A DNA stretch of 64,000 nt from Escherichia phage LYE-01. The translations under genes and the position numbers were made by a program. The notes beneath the pieces were generated by a model. It was given only the letters and a program-made list of their open reading frames with translations. It ran no database searches and had not been told where the DNA came from. Position 1 is the stretch's first letter. Every line of letters starts with the position of its first letter. Location: sequence record PQ303785.1; one strand, written 5' to 3'. This document shows, in pieces, positions 11,111 to 58,496 of the stretch.

Positions 11111-11440
11111 ATGATTTATTGTATGAATATCGGTGATTCCGACATAAAAGAGATTAAACTGCACGGAAATCATCACGCTAATATTGTGTACTGCAATAAA
11201 TTTGAGTTTGGTCACGAAAAACTTGGGTTTCTTTACTGCAATGATGTTATAGTCATGGATAAAAAGAAACTCGATGAACTTGACCGTGAGTCTTTAAATG
11301 AAAATGATCGAATTTATTATGGTACTCTTAAAGTATATAACGCTTATCTTAGTGGTAAAAAGGAAAGTCTAAATGCAGAAAACGAATCCAGGTTTACAGA
11401 GACTATTTCAGATTCCGACATTTACCCTATCGAACAGTGA
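11111..11440 (+). CDS. hypothetical protein (denB.1 position)
   Basis: ORF track; overlaps denB start. Confidence 0.45.
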   Translation: MIYCMNIGDSDIKEIKLHGNHHANIVYCNKFEFGHEKLGFLYCNDVIVMDKKKLDELDRESLNENDRIYYGTLKVYNAYLSGKKESLNAENESRFTETISDSDIYPIEQ

Positions 11441-11930
11441 CTTGACTAGTGAAATGAAGGTCAAAATTGCTGATACAGCAAGATACTCTTTAAAACAAAA
11501 TCCTAATCAGGATAAAGCAGAAGTTATTGAAAGATGTCGCATCGCTGTGTACGCAGAATTTTTTGTAGCAGATTGGCTAAGCGGGTATGTTAACAAAGGC
11601 CAAGAGGATGTTAATGACCCGTATACATATGCGTGGGATGTACTGGCGCATCCAAAATACTGCGGGCTTCGTGTAGAAGTCAAAACACATCAAACTGACT
11701 CACGTTGGATTTCGGTAACAACCGGATGCAGCGGAGAGTATCCATACGGTTCTGGAATAAATCTAGGGCCCATTCTGAATCATCAAGTCGCTGACTGTAT
11801 AATTATATTCAACACTAAAGAAATTCATCCAGGTGTCATCCAGTACACTCCGAAGTTCATCGGTGATAGAGAAGACCTTCGTAAGGTTGTAAGAAAAAGC
11901 AACTACAACGGATGGTATCTTTCCATTTAA
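11373..11930 (+). CDS. denB: endonuclease IV (DenB)
   Basis: 185 aa (T4 DenB length); position after rIIB. Confidence 0.7.
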   Translation: MQKTNPGLQRLFQIPTFTLSNSDLTSEMKVKIADTARYSLKQNPNQDKAEVIERCRIAVYAEFFVADWLSGYVNKGQEDVNDPYTYAWDVLAHPKYCGLRVEVKTHQTDSRWISVTTGCSGEYPYGSGINLGPILNHQVADCIIIFNTKEIHPGVIQYTPKFIGDREDLRKVVRKSNYNGWYLSI

Positions 11931-11946
11931 AAATTTTCACAAAACG

Positions 11947-11976
11947 GTTTACATACCACAAGGACTGTGGTACTAT
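11947..11976 (+). promoter_or_regulatory. early promoter
   Basis: A/T tract, GTTTAC 11947-11952, TGTGG then TACTAT 11971-11976. Confidence 0.6.
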
Positions 11977-12010
11977 ACAACTATCAACTGATACGGATTT
12001 GGAGAATAAA

Positions 12011-12217
12011 ATGTTTACTACAGCTGAATTAAAACGAGCAAAAGCTAAGAAAGGGCAAGGAAAATATAAAGCTGAATTAGTTAAAGAACTTCAGTTTGCT
12101 GAGGCTGAATTGAATTCAATGATTATTCAAAATGCTCCAGAAACTGAAATTGCTCTTAAACGTATTGCGAATAAGTGTCTTCGTGATGCAATCGTCGTTC
12201 TTTTAGCGGATTATTGA
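12011..12217 (+). CDS. hypothetical 68-aa protein
   Basis: Track ORF 11912-12217 starts inside denB and upstream of the promoter; ATG 12011 follows GGAG. Confidence 0.5.
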   Translation: MFTTAELKRAKAKKGQGKYKAELVKELQFAEAELNSMIIQNAPETEIALKRIANKCLRDAIVVLLADY

Positions 12218-12245
12218 GTAAAATGAAAATCGTTGAGATTGAACT

Positions 12246-12332
12246 ATGAGTTCATTATGGTGGTGTTTCATTTGGTTAATTAGTATTCCATTAATTTGTT
12301 TAACATTTACTTTTGTGATGAGGTTATTATGA
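12246..12332 (+). CDS. hydrophobic micro-ORF (28 aa)
   Basis: MSSLWWCFIWLISIPLICLTFTFVMRLL; below track cutoff. Confidence 0.35.
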   Translation: MSSLWWCFIWLISIPLICLTFTFVMRLL

Positions 12333-12427
12333 AAATTTTGAATTCTGTACTTATTGCTTGTGCGTGGTGGGTTGCGCAAGTTTCGGCAGTAGTGATTGGT
12401 ATTCACATTTATTACGAATATTTTTAA
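12329..12427 (+). CDS. hydrophobic micro-ORF (32 aa)
   Basis: MKILNSVLIACAWWVAQVSAVVIGIHIYYEYF; start overlaps previous stop. Confidence 0.35.
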   Translation: MKILNSVLIACAWWVAQVSAVVIGIHIYYEYF

Positions 12428-12434
12428 AAAAGTT

Positions 12435-12464
12435 GTTTACAAGACTGTTCCTCTGTGGTATTAT
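12435..12464 (+). promoter_or_regulatory. early promoter
   Basis: GTTTAC 12435-12440, TATTAT 12459-12464. Confidence 0.6.
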
Positions 12465-12492
12465 TACTCTATCAACTACGGAGGAACAGAAA

Positions 12493-12606
12493 ATGAAAAA
12501 GATTGTTAAAGCTATATGGAATGTAGTTATAATACTAGTAGTTTTGAGTATATTCCCAATCGTTTTAATGATTGATGTATTAAACGCTTACTTTGGATTT
12601 ATGTGA
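12493..12606 (+). CDS. hydrophobic micro-ORF (37 aa)
   Basis: MKKIVKAIWNVVIILVVLSIFPIVLMIDVL...; ATG after GGAGGAACAG and an early promoter. Confidence 0.45.
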   Translation: MKKIVKAIWNVVIILVVLSIFPIVLMIDVLNAYFGFM

Positions 12607-12613
12607 GGAAAAT

Positions 12614-12811
12614 ATGAAGCGTAAACGCAGTGCTTTTACATTTATTGAATGGTTTTTCGATAATATTTTTCCGGCTTTATTCATTTTCATGTTGATTTTC
12701 GCCTTAGGTTCTGTTGTAGTTGGAATCTATTTGATGGCAGTTGTCGGAATGGATATTCACCAAAATGGTTTAAAATCTGTGGTTGAAACAATTTGGAATG
12801 GTGTAAAATGA
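12614..12811 (+). CDS. small membrane protein (65 aa)
   Basis: ATG 12614 after GAGGA; MKRKRSAF then two hydrophobic helices. Confidence 0.5.
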   Translation: MKRKRSAFTFIEWFFDNIFPALFIFMLIFALGSVVVGIYLMAVVGMDIHQNGLKSVVETIWNGVK

Positions 12812-12918
12812 TGAATTTACTAAACATTTGGTTTTATATTCTTATGTTTTACATTGGCGCAAATATCCCATATTGGATGGGATGGTCAACAACTGCATTT
12901 GGATTTTATACTCCCTGA
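12808..12918 (+). CDS. hydrophobic micro-ORF (36 aa)
   Basis: MMNLLNIWFYILMFYIGANIPYWMGW...; overlaps previous stop. Confidence 0.35.
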   Translation: MMNLLNIWFYILMFYIGANIPYWMGWSTTAFGFYTP

Positions 12919-12926
12919 GGTGAATT

Positions 12927-13142
12927 ATGAAAATCTTTAAAGATGTAAAAGTTGGTGAAATTTTTTGCTTAGATAGTGGTGATCAGTTAATTCGTATTTC
13001 ACCTCTTAAGAGCACTAGCGAGAAAATGACGGTTAATGCTACTTTAGCAAATAACAGTAATGAACGTTTCTGTATTGAAAATGATACTGAAACTTATACT
13101 GTAGAAGAGTTCTGGGAATTGAGCGTCGCCTGCGACGATTAA
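12927..13142 (+). CDS. hypothetical 71-aa protein
   Basis: ORF track, GAGG SD. Confidence 0.5.
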   Translation: MKIFKDVKVGEIFCLDSGDQLIRISPLKSTSEKMTVNATLANNSNERFCIENDTETYTVEEFWELSVACDD

Positions 13143-13148
13143 TTTATC

Positions 13149-13170
13149 GGCCGTATGAATTCATACGGCC
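13149..13170 (+). terminator. perfect 22-nt palindrome before ndd
   Basis: GGCCGTATGAATTCATACGGCC (contains GAATTC); no U-run. Confidence 0.35.
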
Positions 13171-13202
13171 TTGGAGTAGAAAATAATTTAGAGGAAATTA
13201 AC

Positions 13203-13658
13203 ATGAAATATATGACTGTTACTGATTTGAATAATGCAGGCGCAACTGTTATTGGTACAATCAAGGGCGGTGAATGGGTTTTTGGAACTCCGCATAAAGA
13301 CATTTTGTCTAACCCTGGATTTTACTTTTTAGTGAGTAAATTTGGTGGTCCATTTGATAGTCCGTGTGTATCTGCACGATTTTATGTAGGTAATCAGCGT
13401 TCTAAGCAAGGATTCAGTGCAGTTCTAAGTCATATTCGTCAGCGTCGGTCTCAGCTTGCGCGTACTATTGCAAATAACAATGTTCCATACACAGTATTTT
13501 ATCTACCTTCTTCTAAGATGAAACCTCTGACGACGGGATTTGGAAAAGGTCAGTTAGCTTTAGCGTTTACTCGTAATCATCATTCTGAGTATCAAACGCT
13601 TGAAGAAATGAACCGTATGTTGGCTGATAACTTTAAATTTGTTTTGCAGGCATATTAA
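13203..13658 (+). CDS. ndd: nucleoid disruption protein Ndd
   Basis: From ATG 13203 (after GAGGA) 151 aa equals T4 Ndd; track start 13155 lies inside a palindrome. Confidence 0.7.
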
Positions 13659-13738
13659 TGAGTAATTTCCATAACGAACATGTGATGCAGTTTTATCGTA
13701 ATAATCTTAAAACTAAAGGCGTCTTCGGACGCCAGTGA
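13658..13738 (+). CDS. stp: Stp peptide (26 aa)
   Basis: [26 protein letters not shown] matches my recollection of T4 Stp; below track cutoff. Confidence 0.75.
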
Positions 13739-13745
13739 GGAAAAT

Positions 13746-13901
13746 GTGAATATTGCAAAATTATTAGGAGTTATTTCATTTATTTGTTGGATAGTAGCAT
13801 GTGTTTTAACTATCTGTATTGATGCCAGCAGCGTGTTTTCGCAAGCTTTAGCTCAGGGTATGTGTGCATATTTAACATTTGCGTTGTTATCTAATGATTA
13901 A
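13746..13901 (+). CDS. ac: Ac-like small membrane protein (51 aa, GTG start)
   Basis: 51 codons from GTG 13746; single hydrophobic helix; position between stp and gene 52. Confidence 0.55.
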   Translation: MNIAKLLGVISFICWIVACVLTICIDASSVFSQALAQGMCAYLTFALLSND

Positions 13902-14034
13902 GAAAATCTTGGGCTATTCATTAGCCCTTGCTACTTTATTGGTAGCACTATATTATGGAGTAATGTTCGGATTAATTCAAGTCGTGCTTTTCATTTCTGA
14001 TGTTATTATGGCACTACATTCACTAGTATGGTAA
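13894..14034 (+). CDS. small membrane protein (46 aa; 52.1 position)
   Basis: MIKKILGYSLALATLLVALYYGVMFGLIQVV...; ends 5 nt before gene 52. Confidence 0.4.
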   Translation: MIKKILGYSLALATLLVALYYGVMFGLIQVVLFISDVIMALHSLVW

Positions 14035-14038
14035 ATTT

Positions 14039-15367
14039 ATGCAACTGAATAATCGCGATTTAAAAAGTATCATTGATAATGAAGCATTGGCTTATGCTAT
14101 GTACACGGTTGAAAATCGTGCTATTCCAAATATGATTGATGGATTTAAGCCAGTTCAACGATTTGTTATCGCTCGAGCTCTTGATTTGGCGCGGGGAAAT
14201 AAAGATAAGTTTCACAAACTCGCTTCTATTGCAGGTGGTGTAGCTGACCTTGGATATCATCATGGCGAAAACTCTGCACAAGATGCGGGGGCTTTGATGG
14301 CTAACACTTGGAATAATAACTTTCCTTTGTTAGATGGTCAAGGAAACTTTGGTTCTCGTACCGTTCAAAAAGCAGCGGCAAGCCGTTATATTTTTGCTCG
14401 TGTAAGTAAAAATTTCTATAACGTATATAAAGATACTGAATATGCTCCGGTACATCAAGATAAAGAACACATTCCTCCTGCTTTCTATTTGCCTATTATT
14501 CCTACTGTTCTTCTTAATGGTGTTTCCGGTATTGCAACTGGTTATGCAACTTACATTCTTCCTCATAGTGTTTCTTCTGTCAAGAAAGCTGTACTACAAG
14601 CTCTTCAAGGAAAGAAAGTAACTAAACCGAAGGTAGAATTCCCAGAATTTCGTGGTGAAGTCGTTGAGATTGACGGGCAATATGAAATTCGTGGAACATA
14701 TAAGTTTACTTCACGAACTCAAATGAATATCACTGAGATTCCGTATAAGTATGATCGTGAAACTTATGTGAGTAAAATCTTAGACCCGCTTGAAGATAAG
14801 GGCTTCATTACATGGGATGATGCTTGCGGTGAGCATGGTTTTGGCTTTAAAGTTAAATTCCGCAAAGAATATTCTTTGAGCGATAACGAAGAAGAACGCC
14901 ATGCAAAAATTATGAAAGACTTTGGGTTGATTGAGCGTCGTTCCCAAAATATTACAGTCATCAACGAGAAAGGAAAGTTACAAGTTTACGATAACGTAGT
15001 TGATTTAATTAAAGACTTCGTTGAAGTTCGTAAAACTTATGTCCAAAAACGAATTGATAACAAAATCAAAGAAACTGAATCAGCATTTCGTTTAGCCTTT
15101 GCCAAGGCGCATTTCATTAAGAAAGTAATTTCAGGTGAAATCGTTGTACAGGGTAAAACTCGTAAAGAACTGACCGAAGAACTTTCTAAAATTGATATGT
15201 ATTCTTCTTATGTTGATAAACTAGTTGGAATGAATATTTTTCATATGACTTCCGACGAAGCAAAGAAACTTGCTGAAGAAGCTAAAGCTAAGAAAGAAGA
15301 AAACGAATATTGGAAAACTACTGATGTAGTTACAGAATACACCAAAGATTTAGAGGAAATCAAATGA
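14039..15367 (+). CDS. 52: DNA topoisomerase II medium subunit (GyrA-like)
   Basis: 442 aa; breakage-reunion domain motifs; T4 gp52 length. Confidence 0.9.
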   Translation: MQLNNRDLKSIIDNEALAYAMYTVENRAIPNMIDGFKPVQRFVIARALDLARGNKDKFHKLASIAGGVADLGYHHGENSAQDAGALMANTWNNNFPLLDGQGNFGSRTVQKAAASRYIFARVSKNFYNVYKDTEYAPVHQDKEHIPPAFYLPIIPTVLLNGVSGIATGYATYILPHSVSSVKKAVLQALQGKKVTKPKVEFPEFRGEVVEIDGQYEIRGTYKFTSRTQMNITEIPYKYDRETYVSKILDPLEDKGFITWDDACGEHGFGFKVKFRKEYSLSDNEEERHAKIMKDFGLIERRSQNITVINEKGKLQVYDNVVDLIKDFVEVRKTYVQKRIDNKIKETESAFRLAFAKAHFIKKVISGEIVVQGKTRKELTEELSKIDMYSSYVDKLVGMNIFHMTSDEAKKLAEEAKAKKEENEYWKTTDVVTEYTKDLEEIK

Positions 15368-15513
15368 GTCCATTTATAGGTATTACAAGCGCGGCATTAG
15401 TATCTGGTGGCATTTTACTAGCGGGGGTAGGTGTTGTTCCAGCCGTAGCAGGAGGTCTTCTTGCATTCGGAATTCAACGCGTTATCATGACAGTTATCAC
15501 AGTCATGCAGTAA
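15364..15513 (+). CDS. hydrophobic 49-aa protein (motA.1 position)
   Basis: ATGA overlap with gene 52 stop; glycine-rich transmembrane peptide; followed by terminator. Confidence 0.4.
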   Translation: MSPFIGITSAALVSGGILLAGVGVVPAVAGGLLAFGIQRVIMTVITVMQ

Positions 15514-57530: not shown

Positions 57531-58496
57531 TTATATTGCTCCTAATATTTTACTTTGCGAATTGACAATTCCTGTCATAGTATTAATGTTTGAAATGCTT
57601 CCTGCAGTTCCTCCTAATCTACTAAGTCGTGAAAGCGAATTAGATAGTCCAGTAACACCTCCACTATTTCCGAGAACGCTTTGAATACCGTTTATAGCAG
57701 CAGATTCAAGCCATTCAAGAGCAGCTTGTCTATCAACCGCTCCAGCCTGCATGACTCTATACGCAAAAGTAACATCAAATGTAGTTATTTGGTTATCTCC
57801 ATCGTATGATAACTCAGGAGCGCTCACTGACACTGGAATGCATCCAGTGAACATCACCGCAGTATGAGGCAATCCATTGCGAGCATGAAGATTAACTTGA
57901 ATATCTGCTTCAACATCTTGTGGTAAAGCACGTAATCCAGTTACTGGGTCTTGAACAGCGTTAACCCAGTCTTGCATCGCACGATAATTACACGACTCTG
58001 AATCCATTCTAAATGAAATAACCAAAGGGTCTAATTCTCTTCCGGTTATGCGAATATTAGGAGAATTATAGTTCCAGTCAGTTTCATAGGATAATCTATT
58101 CTCTGGCATTTTTACGGAGTATATCATCAATCCAGATGAGTTATATGCCATGTTAAAGAAGTCAATTAAATATGTACCAACTGTAAATGAGCCTAATAAA
58201 CTTTGAACTGTACGTTGACTCATGGCACCAATAAGATATTTACTAACCCCTGATTTTCTTATCAGTTTTTGTGTGCCAGCAGTAATTAGCGTAGTAATTC
58301 CCTGATTAATATCGCCTTGAGTTAATCCTAACCAATCTGAATTTAGGCCCAAGTTATTATAAGAAAAGTTGCTAATTGAACTTATCAACGAAGAGCTTTT
58401 AGTTGATGGAGTTGTCGCAAAAACGCAGCTAAACATATTATTACGTTGGAAATCTGCGTTTATTGCTTGATTATTAAATTCCTCTAAAGAATACAT
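57531..58496 (-). CDS. 54: baseplate tail-tube initiator gp54
   Basis: 321 aa; synteny in baseplate operon. Confidence 0.8.
   Translation of the reverse strand: MYSLEEFNNQAINADFQRNNMFSCVFATTPSTKSSSLISSISNFSYNNLGLNSDWLGLTQGDINQGITTLITAGTQKLIRKSGVSKYLIGAMSQRTVQSLLGSFTVGTYLIDFFNMAYNSSGLMIYSVKMPENRLSYETDWNYNSPNIRITGRELDPLVISFRMDSESCNYRAMQDWVNAVQDPVTGLRALPQDVEADIQVNLHARNGLPHTAVMFTGCIPVSVSAPELSYDGDNQITTFDVTFAYRVMQAGAVDRQAALEWLESAAINGIQSVLGNSGGVTGLSNSLSRLSRLGGTAGSISNINTMTGIVNSQSKILGAI

What the first reader, a model, noticed from the sequence alone, without database searches (positions are those of the whole stretch)
12246..12918. Array of five back-to-back hydrophobic micro-ORFs (28-65 aa) between denB and ndd
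Five consecutive small ORFs each encode one or two transmembrane-like helices, with overlapping stop/start codons (12329-12332 and 12808-12811) and an internal early promoter at 12435. Most are below the ORF-track cutoff or mis-started in it. Clusters of tiny membrane peptides in early regions are candidates for host-membrane, transport or exclusion functions and are commonly unannotated.
Basis: seen in the sequence. Interest (0 to 1): 0.55.

Follow-up and report, generated by a model that had tools for sequence, protein, structure and literature searches.

The report
Known T4 ndd.2–ndd.6 membrane micro-genes
The five tiny hydrophobic reading frames are real, conserved early phage genes, but they are the already annotated T4 genes ndd.6, ndd.5, ndd.4, ndd.3/2a and ndd.2, whose function is still unknown and which the phage does not need in laboratory hosts.

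Summary
The window is a T2/T4-like Tequatrovirus. The ORFs are the orthologues of T4 ndd.6, ndd.5, ndd.4, ndd.3+ndd.2a (one 65-aa gene) and ndd.2, all annotated in the T4 reference. Four have PHROG families of their own and ndd.3/2a is Pfam DUF7248.

They are genuine genes. dN/dS is 0.05-0.15 in the annotated frame for four of them. All occur in about 490-600 phage records. ndd.6, ndd.4, ndd.2a and ndd.2 keep their place between denB and ndd in other genera at 40-60% identity.

Published T4 data class their mRNAs as early, found no peptides by mass spectrometry, saw no fitness effect on knock-down, and show that a deletion of the whole region is viable.

Most likely each is a single-pass inner-membrane micro-protein that acts as a dispensable, host-dependent accessory factor. 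The targets are unknown.

Verdict: already known, low interest. Side leads are a tape-measure-like C-terminal motif in ndd.3/2a, replacement-dominated variation in ndd.4, and the unsolved T4 phosphatidylglycerol-stimulation gene, which maps to this deletable region.

The parts
11947..11976 (+). Early-type promoter (GTTTAC-N17-TACTAT with TG extension) after denB, heading the transcription unit that contains the array
   Evidence: Consensus scan. It belongs to a 13-member motif family found only on the + strand and aligns with other early promoter cassettes. Function is inferred, not measured.
12011..12217 (+). 68-aa soluble, charged ORF. Context only; absent from T4, present in T2.
   Evidence: phrog_4535, E = 4e-23. 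GRAVY -0.17. Annotated in T2 LC348380. 61% identical homologue in L008 and L009.
12223..12249 (+). 8-codon relic ORF MKIVEIEL whose TGA overlaps the ndd.6 ATG; a probable translational-coupling leader
   Evidence: In 14 of the 20 related sequences compared, an about 87-aa gene ends with the same ...IxEIEL* and the same ATGA overlap. The window, both T4 records, T2 and UFV13 keep only these last 8 codons, starting at an in-frame ATG. Coupling itself is inferred.
12246..12332 (+). ndd.6 orthologue: 28 aa, one hydrophobic helix
   Evidence: phrog_8851, full length, E = 4e-17. T4 ndd.6 is 93% identical. Found in 493 phage records. dN/dS 0.15. Homologues in other genera share WCxxWxLSIP and have their own Shine-Dalgarno sequence.
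12329..12427 (+). ndd.5 orthologue: 32 aa, one hydrophobic helix; start overlaps the ndd.6 stop (ATGA)
   Evidence: phrog_5011, E = 4e-26. 97% identical to T4 ndd.5. dN/dS 0.09. GAGG six bases upstream of the ATG. Not found in the other-genus loci examined.
12435..12464 (+). Internal early-type promoter (GTTTAC-N17-TATTAT). Together with the downstream 5' leader and the GGAGG before ndd.4 it forms a repeated cassette.
   Evidence: Best-scoring site in the scan, 10 of 12 matches. 89.6% identical over 67 nt to the T4 nrdC.8 upstream region, where GenBank annotates the -35 and -10 at the aligned bases. Fits the T4/PST PeSL (promoter-early stem-loop cassette) consensus TTTACW-N17-TAYWAT (PMC4122927).
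12493..12606 (+). ndd.4 orthologue: 37 aa; basic N-terminus (MKKIVK), then one transmembrane (TM) helix
   Evidence: phrog_3098, E = 3e-21. Found in 595 phage records, about 100 of them in other genera at 55-80% identity. Conserved core KAIWN...IFPIV.xID. GGAGG upstream.
12614..12811 (+). ndd.3/ndd.2a orthologue: one 65-aa gene (Pfam DUF7248) with a basic N-terminus, one TM helix and a conserved C-terminal motif NGLKSVVETIWNG
   Evidence: PF23906, 71.9 bits against a cut-off of 27. phrog_2401. dN/dS 0.05. Found in 499 records, protein at least 95% identical in 490. Family alignment. AlphaFold model has helices 5-17 and 19-64, mean pLDDT 80.
12808..12918 (+). ndd.2 orthologue: 36 aa from 12808 or 35 aa from the conserved ATG at 12811; uncharged, 31% aromatic residues
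   Evidence: phrog_4135, E = 2e-23. Found in 518 records, including 25 Klebsiella phages at about 45% identity. dN/dS 0.14. First ATG is ATA in 7 of 22 relatives.
12927..13142 (+). ndd.1 orthologue: 71 aa, acidic and soluble. Context only; it closes the array before ndd (13203-13658).
   Evidence: phrog_2183, E = 6e-37. GRAVY -0.31. T4 ndd.1 protein was detected as early in proteomics.

Best explanation
Shown: the array is the Tequatrovirus orthologue of the T4 genes ndd.6, ndd.5, ndd.4, ndd.3/2a (a single 65-aa gene) and ndd.2. These are five unrelated, independently evolving protein-coding genes. They sit in the deletable, recombination-prone region between denB and ndd, and in T4 they are transcribed in the early class.

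Inferred for expression: two early sigma-70-type promoters (11947 and 12435) drive them. ndd.5, ndd.4 and ndd.3/2a use their own GAGG or GGAGG ribosome-binding sites. ndd.6 and ndd.2 are translated largely by termination-reinitiation coupling through ATGA/TGATG overlaps; ndd.6 follows an 8-codon relic leader ORF.

Inferred for the products: each inserts into the host inner membrane as a single-pass peptide within the first minutes of infection. Where the N-terminus is basic (ndd.4, ndd.3/2a), the orientation is N-terminus in, C-terminus out.

Inferred for function: they do not work as one machine. Each acts separately as a small accessory modulator that binds a host or incoming-phage membrane component. 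This helps the phage only in particular hosts or conditions, such as envelope or lipid remodelling, exclusion of competing phages, or evasion of membrane-linked defences. In ndd.3/2a the active part is the conserved, probably periplasmic C-terminal helix (NGLKSVVExIWNG), with the TM segment serving as an anchor.
For: Identity:
- Best DNA matches are Tequatroviruses at 94-98%.
- Gene-for-gene correspondence with the T4 and T2 annotation.
- Full-length PHROG hits and Pfam DUF7248.

Coding:
- dN/dS is 0.15, 0.09, 0.05 and 0.14 in frame, against 0.4 or higher or undefined in the shifted frames.
- Variable sites fall 18/5/50 by codon position.
- Indels in 22 genomes lie mostly in spacers.
- ORFs are retained in other genera in the same position, with 40-61% identity and their own Shine-Dalgarno sequences.

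Membrane character: hydrophobic runs of 21-35 uncharged residues and basic N-termini; helical model.

Independence:
- No paralogy among the five.
- Different phyletic spread: ndd.5 was found only in Tequatrovirus loci, ndd.4 in 595 records, and ndd.2 also in Klebsiella phages.
- Gene order is shuffled in L010.
- Individual genes are disrupted in single isolates.

Expression: T4 ndd.2 to ndd.6 mRNAs are classed as early (PMC9697503, Table S2). The promoter is homologous to an annotated T4 early promoter.

Dispensability: all six T4 entries were 'Not Fit' in the CRISPRi-ART translational knock-down screen (PMC11879866). The saΔ9 deletion of 52.1 through denB still gives 50% of the wild-type yield (PMC6071114).

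C-terminal motif: G52, W61 and G63 are invariant across 25 diverse DUF7248 members, while the TM sequence is not conserved.

Precedent: T4 Imm, another small early inner-membrane protein, binds the tape-measure protein to block superinfection (bioRxiv 10.64898/2026.03.06.709160).
Against: - No peptide from ndd.2 to ndd.6 was detected by mass spectrometry in T4 infection. This is expected for 3-7 kDa hydrophobic peptides, but it means translation is inferred from evolution only.
- No binding partner, topology or phenotype exists for any of the five.
- Knock-down gave no fitness effect, which fits conditional function but equally fits very weak function.
- Several natural isolates carry disrupted copies: T2 has a stop at codon 45 of ndd.2a, slur04 and ECO4 have frameshifts in ndd.2, and sb4 has a stop in ndd.6.
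- ndd.4 shows no excess of synonymous change within the genus, so its coding status rests on cross-genus conservation.
- dN/dS values are pooled pairwise Nei-Gojobori estimates on 20-22 related sequences, without correction for phylogeny.
Confidence: 0.6

Rival explanations
1. One or more of the five peptides is the long-sought T4 function that stimulates phosphatidylglycerol synthesis after infection. It would act in the membrane on the phospholipid-synthesis enzymes or their regulation.
For: Kutter et al. 2018 (PMC6071114) report that the saΔ9 deletion (52.1, ac, stp, ndd, ndd.1-ndd.6, denB) abolishes the stimulation. The partly overlapping rIIΔDD2 deletion loses the PG-specific stimulation. 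The responsible genes are stated to be unknown. The ndd.2-ndd.6 products are the membrane-type candidates nearest denB.
Against: The deletion also removes ac, 52.1, ndd, ndd.1, stp and denB, and nothing singles out these five. The end points of rIIΔDD2 were not available to me. There is no similarity to any lipid-metabolism protein. The effect might be indirect.
Confidence: 0.18
2. ndd.3/2a (DUF7248) is a membrane-anchored single copy of the repeat unit found in phage tape-measure proteins. It acts at the periplasmic face on a DNA-entry channel, for example as a second superinfection-exclusion factor alongside Imm.
For: A profile search of 1.84 billion proteins returned 25 proteins of 25-76 aa (mostly small DUF7248-type) and 4 long repeat proteins; two of the long ones carry PhageMin_Tail. 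The TMP repeat 'WNGLKSIVDTIWGG' aligns to the DUF7248 consensus over 18 columns (hhalign, 56% identity, probability 72%). In these TMPs the repeats follow TM segments. TMP-length ORFs with the same motif occur in 32-52 kb viral contigs. T4 Imm is now reported to bind the T4 tape-measure protein.
Against: The similarity covers only 14-18 residues of an amphipathic helix and could be convergent. The second TMP gave hhalign probability 10%. The T4-type tape-measure protein gp29 in this window shows no such motif; the only weak hit (E = 0.13) falls in the neighbouring 321-aa ORF at 57531-58496, probably gp54. The T2 lineage carries a stop that removes the motif. No exclusion phenotype is known.
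Confidence: 0.08
3. The peptides counteract membrane-associated host defence or abortive-infection systems, so they matter only on hosts that carry the matching system.
For: They lie in a hyperplastic region with cassette shuffling (PMC4122927), next to stp and rII, which interact with host exclusion systems (T4 annotation). Presence and absence are patchy and pseudogenes occur in isolates. ndd.4 variation within the genus is almost entirely amino-acid replacement at intermediate frequency, a pattern seen in arms-race genes.
Against: No defence system is linked to them. The only PADLOC hit is KwaA at 13.8 bits, E = 0.0085, a TM-to-TM match of no weight. The ndd.4 replacements are conservative (V/I, A/V).
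Confidence: 0.12
4. They are non-specific membrane-perturbing or depolarising peptides, like type I toxins or holins, that contribute to host shut-off.
For: Their size and hydrophobicity resemble type I toxins. Kutter et al. note that many small immediate-early T4 genes are host-lethal when cloned.
Against: There is no match to Hok, TisB, holin or other toxin families in Pfam or NCBIfam. ndd.3/2a conserves a specific extramembrane motif rather than the TM segment, which argues for specific binding. Knock-down had no effect on phage fitness.
Confidence: 0.08
5. Some or all of the frames are not translated; they are chance ORFs in AT-rich spacer DNA between denB and ndd.
For: No peptides were detected by mass spectrometry. 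Hydrophobic short ORFs are common by chance here. ndd.6 and ndd.2 have weak Shine-Dalgarno sequences.
Against: There is frame-specific purifying selection. ORFs are conserved at 40-60% identity in other genera, with shifted order and their own ribosome-binding sites. Stop/start coupling is preserved even where the upstream gene was lost.
Confidence: 0.03

Closest known systems
Bacteriophage T4 genes ndd.6, ndd.5, ndd.4, ndd.3 + ndd.2a, ndd.2 (NC_000866, T4p275-T4p270); same genes in T2 (LC348380)
   Same: Same order between denB and ndd.1/ndd. Protein identity is 89-98%. The ATGA overlaps and the internal promoter are the same. The layout with the extra 68-aa ORF is identical to T2.
   Different: In the T4 reference one base is missing after codon 2, which splits the 65-aa gene into 'ndd.3' and 'ndd.2a'. 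The window, two re-sequenced T4 genomes and most relatives have one intact gene. T4 annotates ndd.4 from an upstream ATG (42 aa) that is ACG in the window. T4 lacks the 68-aa ORF.
Pfam DUF7248 (PF23906) / PHROG 2401, for the 65-aa protein only
   Same: Scores 71.9 bits against a cut-off of 27. Same architecture: basic N-terminus, one TM helix, C-terminal NGLKSVVExIWNG motif.
   Different: Tequatrovirus members carry an extra N-terminal amphipathic stretch (FIEWFFDNIFP) that most members lack. The family has no known function.
T4 Imm (superinfection immunity protein)
   Same: A small, early, non-essential T4 inner-membrane protein. It is now reported to act by binding the tape-measure protein of an incoming phage. 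This is the best functional analogue for what such peptides can do.
   Different: No sequence relationship: no Pfam hit of any of the five to the Imm family. Imm has several helices and a demonstrated phenotype; the ndd peptides have one helix and none.
T4 Ac and gp52.1 (window 13746-13901 and 13894-14034)
   Same: Neighbouring small hydrophobic early proteins in the same deletable region. They are removed together with the array by saΔ9.
   Different: Unrelated in sequence. Ac has a genetic phenotype (acridine sensitivity or resistance; T4 annotation); the ndd peptides have none.
Tandem repeat unit of some phage tape-measure proteins (for example P0012 and P0018, PhageMin_Tail PF10145)
   Same: The C-terminal 14-18 residues of ndd.3/2a match the repeat (xLKSxVExIWxG), and in both proteins the motif follows a TM segment.
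   Different: One copy instead of 5-10; 65 aa against 900-1500 aa. The similarity is too short to establish homology.
Bacterial small membrane-protein regulators such as AcrZ or MgrB (own knowledge, not tested here)
   Same: Single-pass peptides of 30-65 aa that work by binding larger membrane proteins. This is a model for the mechanism.
   Different: No sequence similarity was found. The comparison rests on size and architecture only.

Membership tests
T4 ndd.6 / ndd.5 / ndd.4 / ndd.2a / ndd.2 orthologue groups (PHROGs 8851, 5011, 3098, 2401, 4135) | Full-length match of each peptide to the family profile | tested here: met
   E-values from 4e-17 to 3e-30; profile covered end to end or nearly so. 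89-98% identity to the T4 proteins.
T4 ndd.6 / ndd.5 / ndd.4 / ndd.2a / ndd.2 orthologue groups | Position and order between denB and ndd.1/ndd on the early strand | tested here: met
   Same order as the T4, ime09 and T2 annotations.
T4 ndd.6 / ndd.5 / ndd.4 / ndd.2a / ndd.2 orthologue groups | Protein-coding: selection acts on the annotated frame | tested here: met
   dN/dS 0.05-0.15 for four genes. For ndd.4 the within-genus test is uninformative (dN/dS 3.4 on 7 variable sites), but the ORF is kept at 55-61% identity in other genera.
T4 ndd.6 / ndd.5 / ndd.4 / ndd.2a / ndd.2 orthologue groups | Translation and membrane location of the products | not testable with these tools
   Published T4 proteomics did not detect them. 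Hydropathy and the predicted helix are the only support.
Pfam DUF7248 (PF23906) | Score above the curated gathering threshold | tested here: met
   71.9 bits against 27, residues 6-63.
Pfam DUF7248 (PF23906) | Single TM segment followed by the conserved NGLKSxVExIWxG motif | tested here: met
   G52, W61 and G63 invariant and L53 and K54 near-invariant in 25 members.
T4 early promoter / PeSL (promoter-early stem-loop) cassette (Comeau et al. 2014) | TTTACW-N17-TAYWAT hexamers on the early strand | tested here: met
   TTTACA-17-TATTAT at 12436-12464 and TTTACA-17-TACTAT at 11948-11976. Consensus quoted. Aligned with annotated T4 -35 and -10 signals.
T4 early promoter / PeSL (promoter-early stem-loop) cassette (Comeau et al. 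2014) | Stem-loop (terminator-like) element just upstream of the promoter | tested here: inconclusive
   The terminator scan found no site next to 11947 or 12435. The paper says stem-loops of the T4/PST type are short and variable, so the scan may be too strict.
T4 early promoter / PeSL (promoter-early stem-loop) cassette (Comeau et al. 2014) | Promoter activity early in infection | not testable with these tools
   Only indirect: T4 mRNAs of ndd.2 to ndd.6 are classed as early.
Imm-type superinfection exclusion proteins | Sequence membership in the Imm family | tested here: not met
   No Pfam hit for any of the five at E <= 0.1 other than DUF7248 and a weak DUF6753 match (E = 0.046, below its cut-off), both on the 65-aa protein.
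Imm-type superinfection exclusion proteins | Blocks DNA entry of a second phage; binds the tape-measure protein | not testable with these tools
   Needs plating and interaction assays.
Type I toxins / holins (small membrane-damaging peptides) | Match to a known toxin or holin family | tested here: not met
   No hits in Pfam, NCBIfam or PADLOC beyond noise.
Phage tape-measure protein repeat | Significant, extended similarity to the repeat region | tested here: inconclusive
   18 aligned columns, 56% identity, hhalign probability 72% with P0018 and 10% with P0012. The Pfam DUF7248 model hits TMPs at 17-18 bits, below its cut-off.

The most novel reading that the evidence does not exclude
The 65-aa ndd.3/2a protein (DUF7248) is a membrane-tethered single copy of the tape-measure-protein repeat. 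T4-like phages would deploy it early at the periplasmic face of the inner membrane to act on phage DNA-entry channels. That would make it a second, unrecognised superinfection-exclusion or entry-modulating factor. ndd.4 would be a fast-evolving partner or a separate host-interaction factor.
Probability: 0.08. Interest if true: 0.6.

Novelty: already known. Interest (0 to 1): 0.22.

Why it matters
As a discovery it does not matter much. The genes have been in the T4 annotation for decades, and this work only confirms that they are real and conserved.

Their function is a genuine gap. They are among the smallest conserved genes of the best-studied phage. They lie in the only T4 region whose deletion abolishes the phage-induced rise in phosphatidylglycerol synthesis, a question left open since 1968-69 (PMC6071114). 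Small early membrane proteins such as Imm are now being shown to have precise molecular targets.

The comparative data give concrete handles for experiments:
- the correct gene models: one 65-aa ndd.3/2a, ndd.2 starting at the second ATG, and a coupling leader before ndd.6;
- the invariant residues of the DUF7248 motif;
- natural knock-outs, such as the T2 stop codon.

Tried and rejected
- Pfam, NCBIfam and PADLOC scans of all five peptides gave nothing beyond DUF7248. The KwaA hit for ndd.4 (13.8 bits) and a glutamate-cysteine ligase hit for ndd.2 are hydrophobic noise.
- Paralogy among the five, or with ac, 52.1 or other ORFs of the window, was tested and none found.
- Similarity of ndd.3/2a to the T4-type tape-measure protein gp29 encoded in the window was tested and none found; the only weak hit (E = 0.13) lies in the neighbouring 321-aa ORF, probably gp54.
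- RNA structure as the cause of the low synonymous variation in ndd.4: the fold z-score is -1.63, not significant. There is no Rfam family in 11300-14100.
- The search for homologous proteins refuses queries under 40 aa, so only the 65-aa protein could be searched there, and it returned only close relatives.
Whether small DUF7248 genes occur in prophages is therefore untested.
- IMG/VR held few T4-like relatives: 8 and 15 loci.
- Literature searches for 'ndd.2a' and related names found no functional study. Miller et al. 2003 (PMC150520) is not held. Ojima et al. 2024 on anti-defence genes does not mention these genes.
- A fold search on the helical model was not run, because a single long helix gives meaningless matches.
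Full report
WHAT THE WINDOW IS. The region around the finding matches 573 phage records, almost all Tequatrovirus (T4, T2 and RB-type phages of Escherichia, Shigella and Yersinia). The best match is 97.5% identical over 2.8 kb. On the + strand the gene order is:
- denB, 11373-11930
- a 68-aa ORF, 12011-12217
- the five micro-ORFs
- ndd.1, 12927-13142
- ndd, 13203-13658
- stp, 13658-13738
- ac, 13746-13901
- 52.1, ending at 14034
- topoisomerase gene 52, 14039-15367

This order follows, compared with the annotated T4, ime09 and T2 records. The layout, including the 68-aa ORF, is that of T2.

CHECK OF THE OBSERVATION. The five ORFs are:
- 12246-12332, 28 aa
- 12329-12427, 32 aa
- 12493-12606, 37 aa
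- 12614-12811, 65 aa
- 12808-12918, 36 aa

ATGA overlaps lie at 12329-12332 and 12808-12811. The mechanical ORF list extends four of them to upstream TTG codons, and most fall under a 60-aa cut-off. Each peptide has an uncharged hydrophobic run of 21-35 residues. The flanking 68-aa ORF, ndd.1 and stp are hydrophilic.

The promoter call at 12435 is the best sigma-70-like site in the region: TTTACA-17-TATTAT with a TG extension. The motif GTTTAC-N14-16-TGnTAnnnT occurs 13 times on the + strand of the window and never on the - strand. The 67 bases from the -35 element through the Shine-Dalgarno sequence are 89.6% identical to the region upstream of T4 nrdC.8. There GenBank U76612 annotates -35 and -10 signals at exactly the aligned bases. 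The site also fits the T4/PST consensus TTTACW-N17-TAYWAT of the PeSL (promoter-early stem-loop) cassettes of Comeau et al. 2014 (PMC4122927).

Hydrophobicity alone is weak evidence in this AT-rich genome: 15 of 184 short ATG ORFs on the + strand pass the same hydropathy threshold. The case for real genes therefore has to rest on comparison with relatives.

WHAT THE ORFS ARE. They are the orthologues of T4 ndd.6, ndd.5, ndd.4, ndd.3 + ndd.2a and ndd.2 (T4p275-T4p270), at 89-98% amino-acid identity. Each matches its own PHROG over its full length or nearly so (phrog_8851, 5011, 3098, 2401, 4135). The 65-aa protein is Pfam DUF7248, at 71.9 bits against a cut-off of 27. The five are unrelated to each other and to other ORFs in the window.

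ARE THEY GENES? I aligned the window with 21 Tequatrovirus sequences, chosen down the similarity ranking at 94-98% DNA identity.

Pooled pairwise Nei-Gojobori dN/dS in the annotated frame is:
- ndd.6: 0.15
- ndd.5: 0.09
- ndd.3/2a: 0.05
- ndd.2: 0.14

The shifted frames give 0.4 or higher, or have no synonymous change at all. Variable sites in these four genes fall 18/5/50 on codon positions 1/2/3 (p = 3e-10). Length changes lie mostly in the spacers.

tblastn finds ndd.6 in 493 phage records, ndd.3/2a in 499, ndd.4 in 595 and ndd.2 in 518. ndd.5 was not searched this way.

More distant T4-like phages (denB 45-62% identical) keep small hydrophobic ORFs in the same slot between denB and ndd:
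- L008 and L009 have ndd.6.
- L010 has ndd.6, ndd.4, ndd.2, a zinc-ribbon ORF and ndd.2a, in a different order.
- L030, L031 and L032 (about 170-kb T4-like phage contigs; ndd.4 there is 61% identical, as in MX01 and VR26) have ndd.6, ndd.4 and ndd.2a.
- L035 has ndd.2a only.

Identity in these loci is 40-61%, with conserved cores (WCxxWxLSIP in ndd.6; KAIWN...IFPIV.xID in ndd.4) and their own Shine-Dalgarno sequences.

ndd.4 is the exception within the genus. It has only 7 variable sites, with pS 0.006 and pN 0.020. Its coding status rests on the cross-genus conservation.

GENE-MODEL DETAILS.
(i) The T4 reference lacks one base just after the start codon (ATGAACGT against ATGAAGCGT). This splits the 65-aa gene into the annotated 'ndd.3' (26 aa, wrong frame) and 'ndd.2a' (40 aa). 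Two re-sequenced T4 genomes, MT984581 and OZ209023, and most relatives have the intact 198-nt gene. ndd.3 and ndd.2a are therefore one gene.
(ii) The first ATG of ndd.2 (12808) is ATA in 7 of 22 genomes. The conserved start is 12811, which overlaps the upstream stop as TGATG.
(iii) Directly upstream of ndd.6 is an 8-codon ORF, MKIVEIEL (12223-12249), whose TGA overlaps the ndd.6 ATG. In 14 of the 20 related sequences compared, an about 87-aa gene ends with the same ...IxEIEL* and the same overlap. The window, both T4 records, T2 and UFV13 have lost that gene but kept its last eight codons from an in-frame ATG. In T4 this ATG sits behind a strong GGAGAATAAAATG. The simplest reading is that the stub is kept because ndd.6, which has a weak Shine-Dalgarno sequence of its own, is translated by coupling. 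This is inference.
(iv) Natural disruptions exist:
- T2 and ELT1 carry a stop at codon 45 of ndd.3/2a, removing the conserved C-terminus.
- slur04 (+1) and ECO4 (+5) have frameshifts in ndd.2.
- sb4 has a stop in ndd.6.
- One IMG/VR genome has a 2-nt insertion at the end of ndd.6.
- Shigella phage Sf25 encodes an in-frame fusion of ndd.4 and ndd.2a.

WHAT IS PUBLISHED.
- Wolfram-Schauerte et al. 2022 (PMC9697503, Table S2) class the T4 ndd.2, ndd.2a, ndd.3, ndd.4, ndd.5 and ndd.6 transcripts as early and list the proteins as not detected. Ndd and Ndd.1 are early at both levels.
- Adler et al. 2025 (PMC11879866, supplementary data) score all six T4 entries as 'Not Fit' in the transcriptome-wide dCas13d translational knock-down and list their essentiality as unknown.
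- Kutter et al. 2018 (PMC6071114) state that the products of ndd.1-ndd.6 are unknown. The saΔ9 deletion (52.1 through denB) still yields 50% of the wild-type burst. The same deletion abolishes the T4-induced stimulation of phospholipid synthesis, especially phosphatidylglycerol. The authors ask which genes are responsible.
- Comeau et al. 2014 use this very locus (the ndd.4/.5 exchange between T4 and PST) as an example of cassette shuffling by promoter-containing repeats.
- I found no functional study of any of the five genes.

HOW THEY MOST LIKELY WORK. Shown: they are five unrelated, conserved, early-transcribed, dispensable genes for very hydrophobic peptides of 28-65 aa.

Inferred: each is a single-pass inner-membrane micro-protein. 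ndd.4 (MKKIVK...) and ndd.3/2a (MKRKRS...) have basic N-termini, so by the positive-inside rule their C-termini face the periplasm.

For ndd.3/2a a profile search of 1.84 billion representative proteins found 29 hits, most of them proteins of 47-76 aa. An alignment of 25 members shows a variable TM segment and a strongly conserved C-terminal motif, (E/D)NGLKS(V/I)VExIW(N/E)G. G52, W61 and G63 are invariant. The AlphaFold model is a short helix (5-17) followed by one long helix (19-64), with mean pLDDT 80. The functional part is thus the tethered extramembrane helix, which argues for a specific binding partner rather than general membrane damage.

The five genes have different phyletic distributions, appear in shuffled order, and are lost singly in isolates. 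I therefore regard them as independent accessory modules in a hyperplastic region, useful in particular hosts or conditions, rather than subunits of one machine. Confidence in this overall picture is about 0.6. The targets are unknown.

RIVALS. In order of my estimate:
- One of them is the PG-stimulation gene (0.18).
- Anti-defence against membrane-linked systems (0.12).
- ndd.3/2a as a tape-measure mimic or exclusion factor (0.08).
- Unspecific membrane toxins (0.08).
- Not translated (0.03).

The first three are special cases of the main explanation, not exclusive alternatives.

TWO LEADS THAT GO BEYOND THE ANNOTATION.
(a) Besides small DUF7248 proteins, the profile search returned four repeat proteins of 820-976 aa. 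Two carry the PhageMin_Tail tape-measure domain. Their tandem repeats, located after TM segments, read like the ndd.3/2a C-terminus: for example WNGLKSIVDTIWGG, or GMKSVVETIWQG directly after a TM segment. hhalign gives 72% probability over 18 columns for one of these proteins and 10% for another. ORFs of 1415-1516 aa, tape-measure-like in size and repeats, with the same motif occur in 32-52 kb viral contigs. A 2026 preprint reports that T4 Imm, also a small early inner-membrane protein, blocks superinfection by binding the T4 tape-measure protein. The resemblance is short and may be convergent. The T4-type tape-measure protein in this window does not carry the motif.
(b) ndd.4 DNA is at least 99% identical to the window in 222 of 494 records and below 95% in only one. 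The protein, however, is 90-95% identical in 247 records. Nearly all differences are replacements (V5I, V16I, A32V) at intermediate frequency and in all combinations. Third-position variation is 2 of 36 sites, against 50 of 156 in the neighbouring genes (p = 7e-4). An equal-length piece of ndd.3/2a shows the opposite pattern. RNA structure does not explain it (z = -1.63). A recent cassette sweep followed by selection on TM residues is possible but untested.

VERDICT. They are the known T4 genes ndd.6 to ndd.2, so novelty is 'already known' and interest is low (0.22). What remains open is their function, for which the comparative data here give testable gene models and residues.

Noticed in passing
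window 12223-12249: An 8-codon ORF, MKIVEIEL, whose stop overlaps the ndd.6 start. It is the retained tail of an about 87-aa gene that 14 of the 20 related sequences compared still have at this spot. It probably preserves translational coupling into ndd.6.
   Followed up: yes
window 12614-12811; L002 (T4 NC_000866) 2633-2829: The T4 reference genes 'ndd.3' and 'ndd.2a' are one 65-aa gene, split by a single missing base after codon 2. Re-sequenced T4 genomes (MT984581, OZ209023) have the intact ORF, so this is a reference error or a strain variant.
   Followed up: yes
L013 and L040 (phage T2), aligned to window about 12746: The T2 lineage (and phage ELT1) has a stop at codon 45 of ndd.3/2a that removes the conserved C-terminal motif. 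This is a natural knock-out.
   Followed up: partly
window 12764-12811 (C-terminus of ndd.3/2a); P0012, P0018, L034-L039: The DUF7248 C-terminal motif NGLKSVVETIWNG closely resembles the tandem repeat unit that follows the TM segments of some phage tape-measure proteins.
   Followed up: partly
window 12493-12606, extending to about 12687: ndd.4 has almost no synonymous variation among about 490 genomes, while three amino-acid replacements segregate at intermediate frequency. A low-diversity zone runs from about 12470 to 12687. This is unexplained.
   Followed up: partly
window 12808-12813: The first ATG of ndd.2 is ATA in 7 of 22 relatives. The conserved start is the second ATG at 12811.
   Followed up: yes
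window 12011-12217: A 68-aa charged ORF (phrog_4535) between denB and ndd.6 is absent from T4 and present in T2. It is bounded by the promoter cassette and by a repeat of the AAAATGAAAATCG junction, which looks like a cassette insertion or deletion.
   Followed up: partly
P0007 (Shigella phage Sf25): An in-frame fusion of ndd.4 residues 1-30 to the C-terminal half of ndd.3/2a, made by a deletion. The precomputed annotation gives PF26889 for the ndd.4 part; no such family was hit by the local Pfam scans.
   Followed up: no
window, + strand: 2067, 7453, 11947, 12435, 15570, 18035, 32185, 32909, 41332, 44656, 48195, 48587, 57151: Thirteen copies of the early-promoter motif GTTTAC-N14-16-TGnTAnnnT, all on the + strand. 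Several share the downstream leader (CTATCAACT...) and the Shine-Dalgarno sequence, like the PeSL cassettes described for T4-type phages.
   Followed up: partly
window 13746-13901, 13894-14034, 15364-15513: More small hydrophobic ORFs follow just downstream: ac, 52.1 and a 49-aa ORF that starts at the stop of gene 52. The denB-to-52 region thus encodes at least eight membrane micro-proteins.
   Followed up: no
GenBank records of relatives (for example ime09, PST, EcNP1), aligned to window 12493-12606: The 37-aa ndd.4 is labelled 'naphthalene 1,2-dioxygenase' in many records. The labels 'outer membrane protein' and 'periplasmic protein' on ndd.6, ndd.5 and ndd.2a are likewise unverified. These appear to be propagated annotation artefacts.
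   Followed up: no
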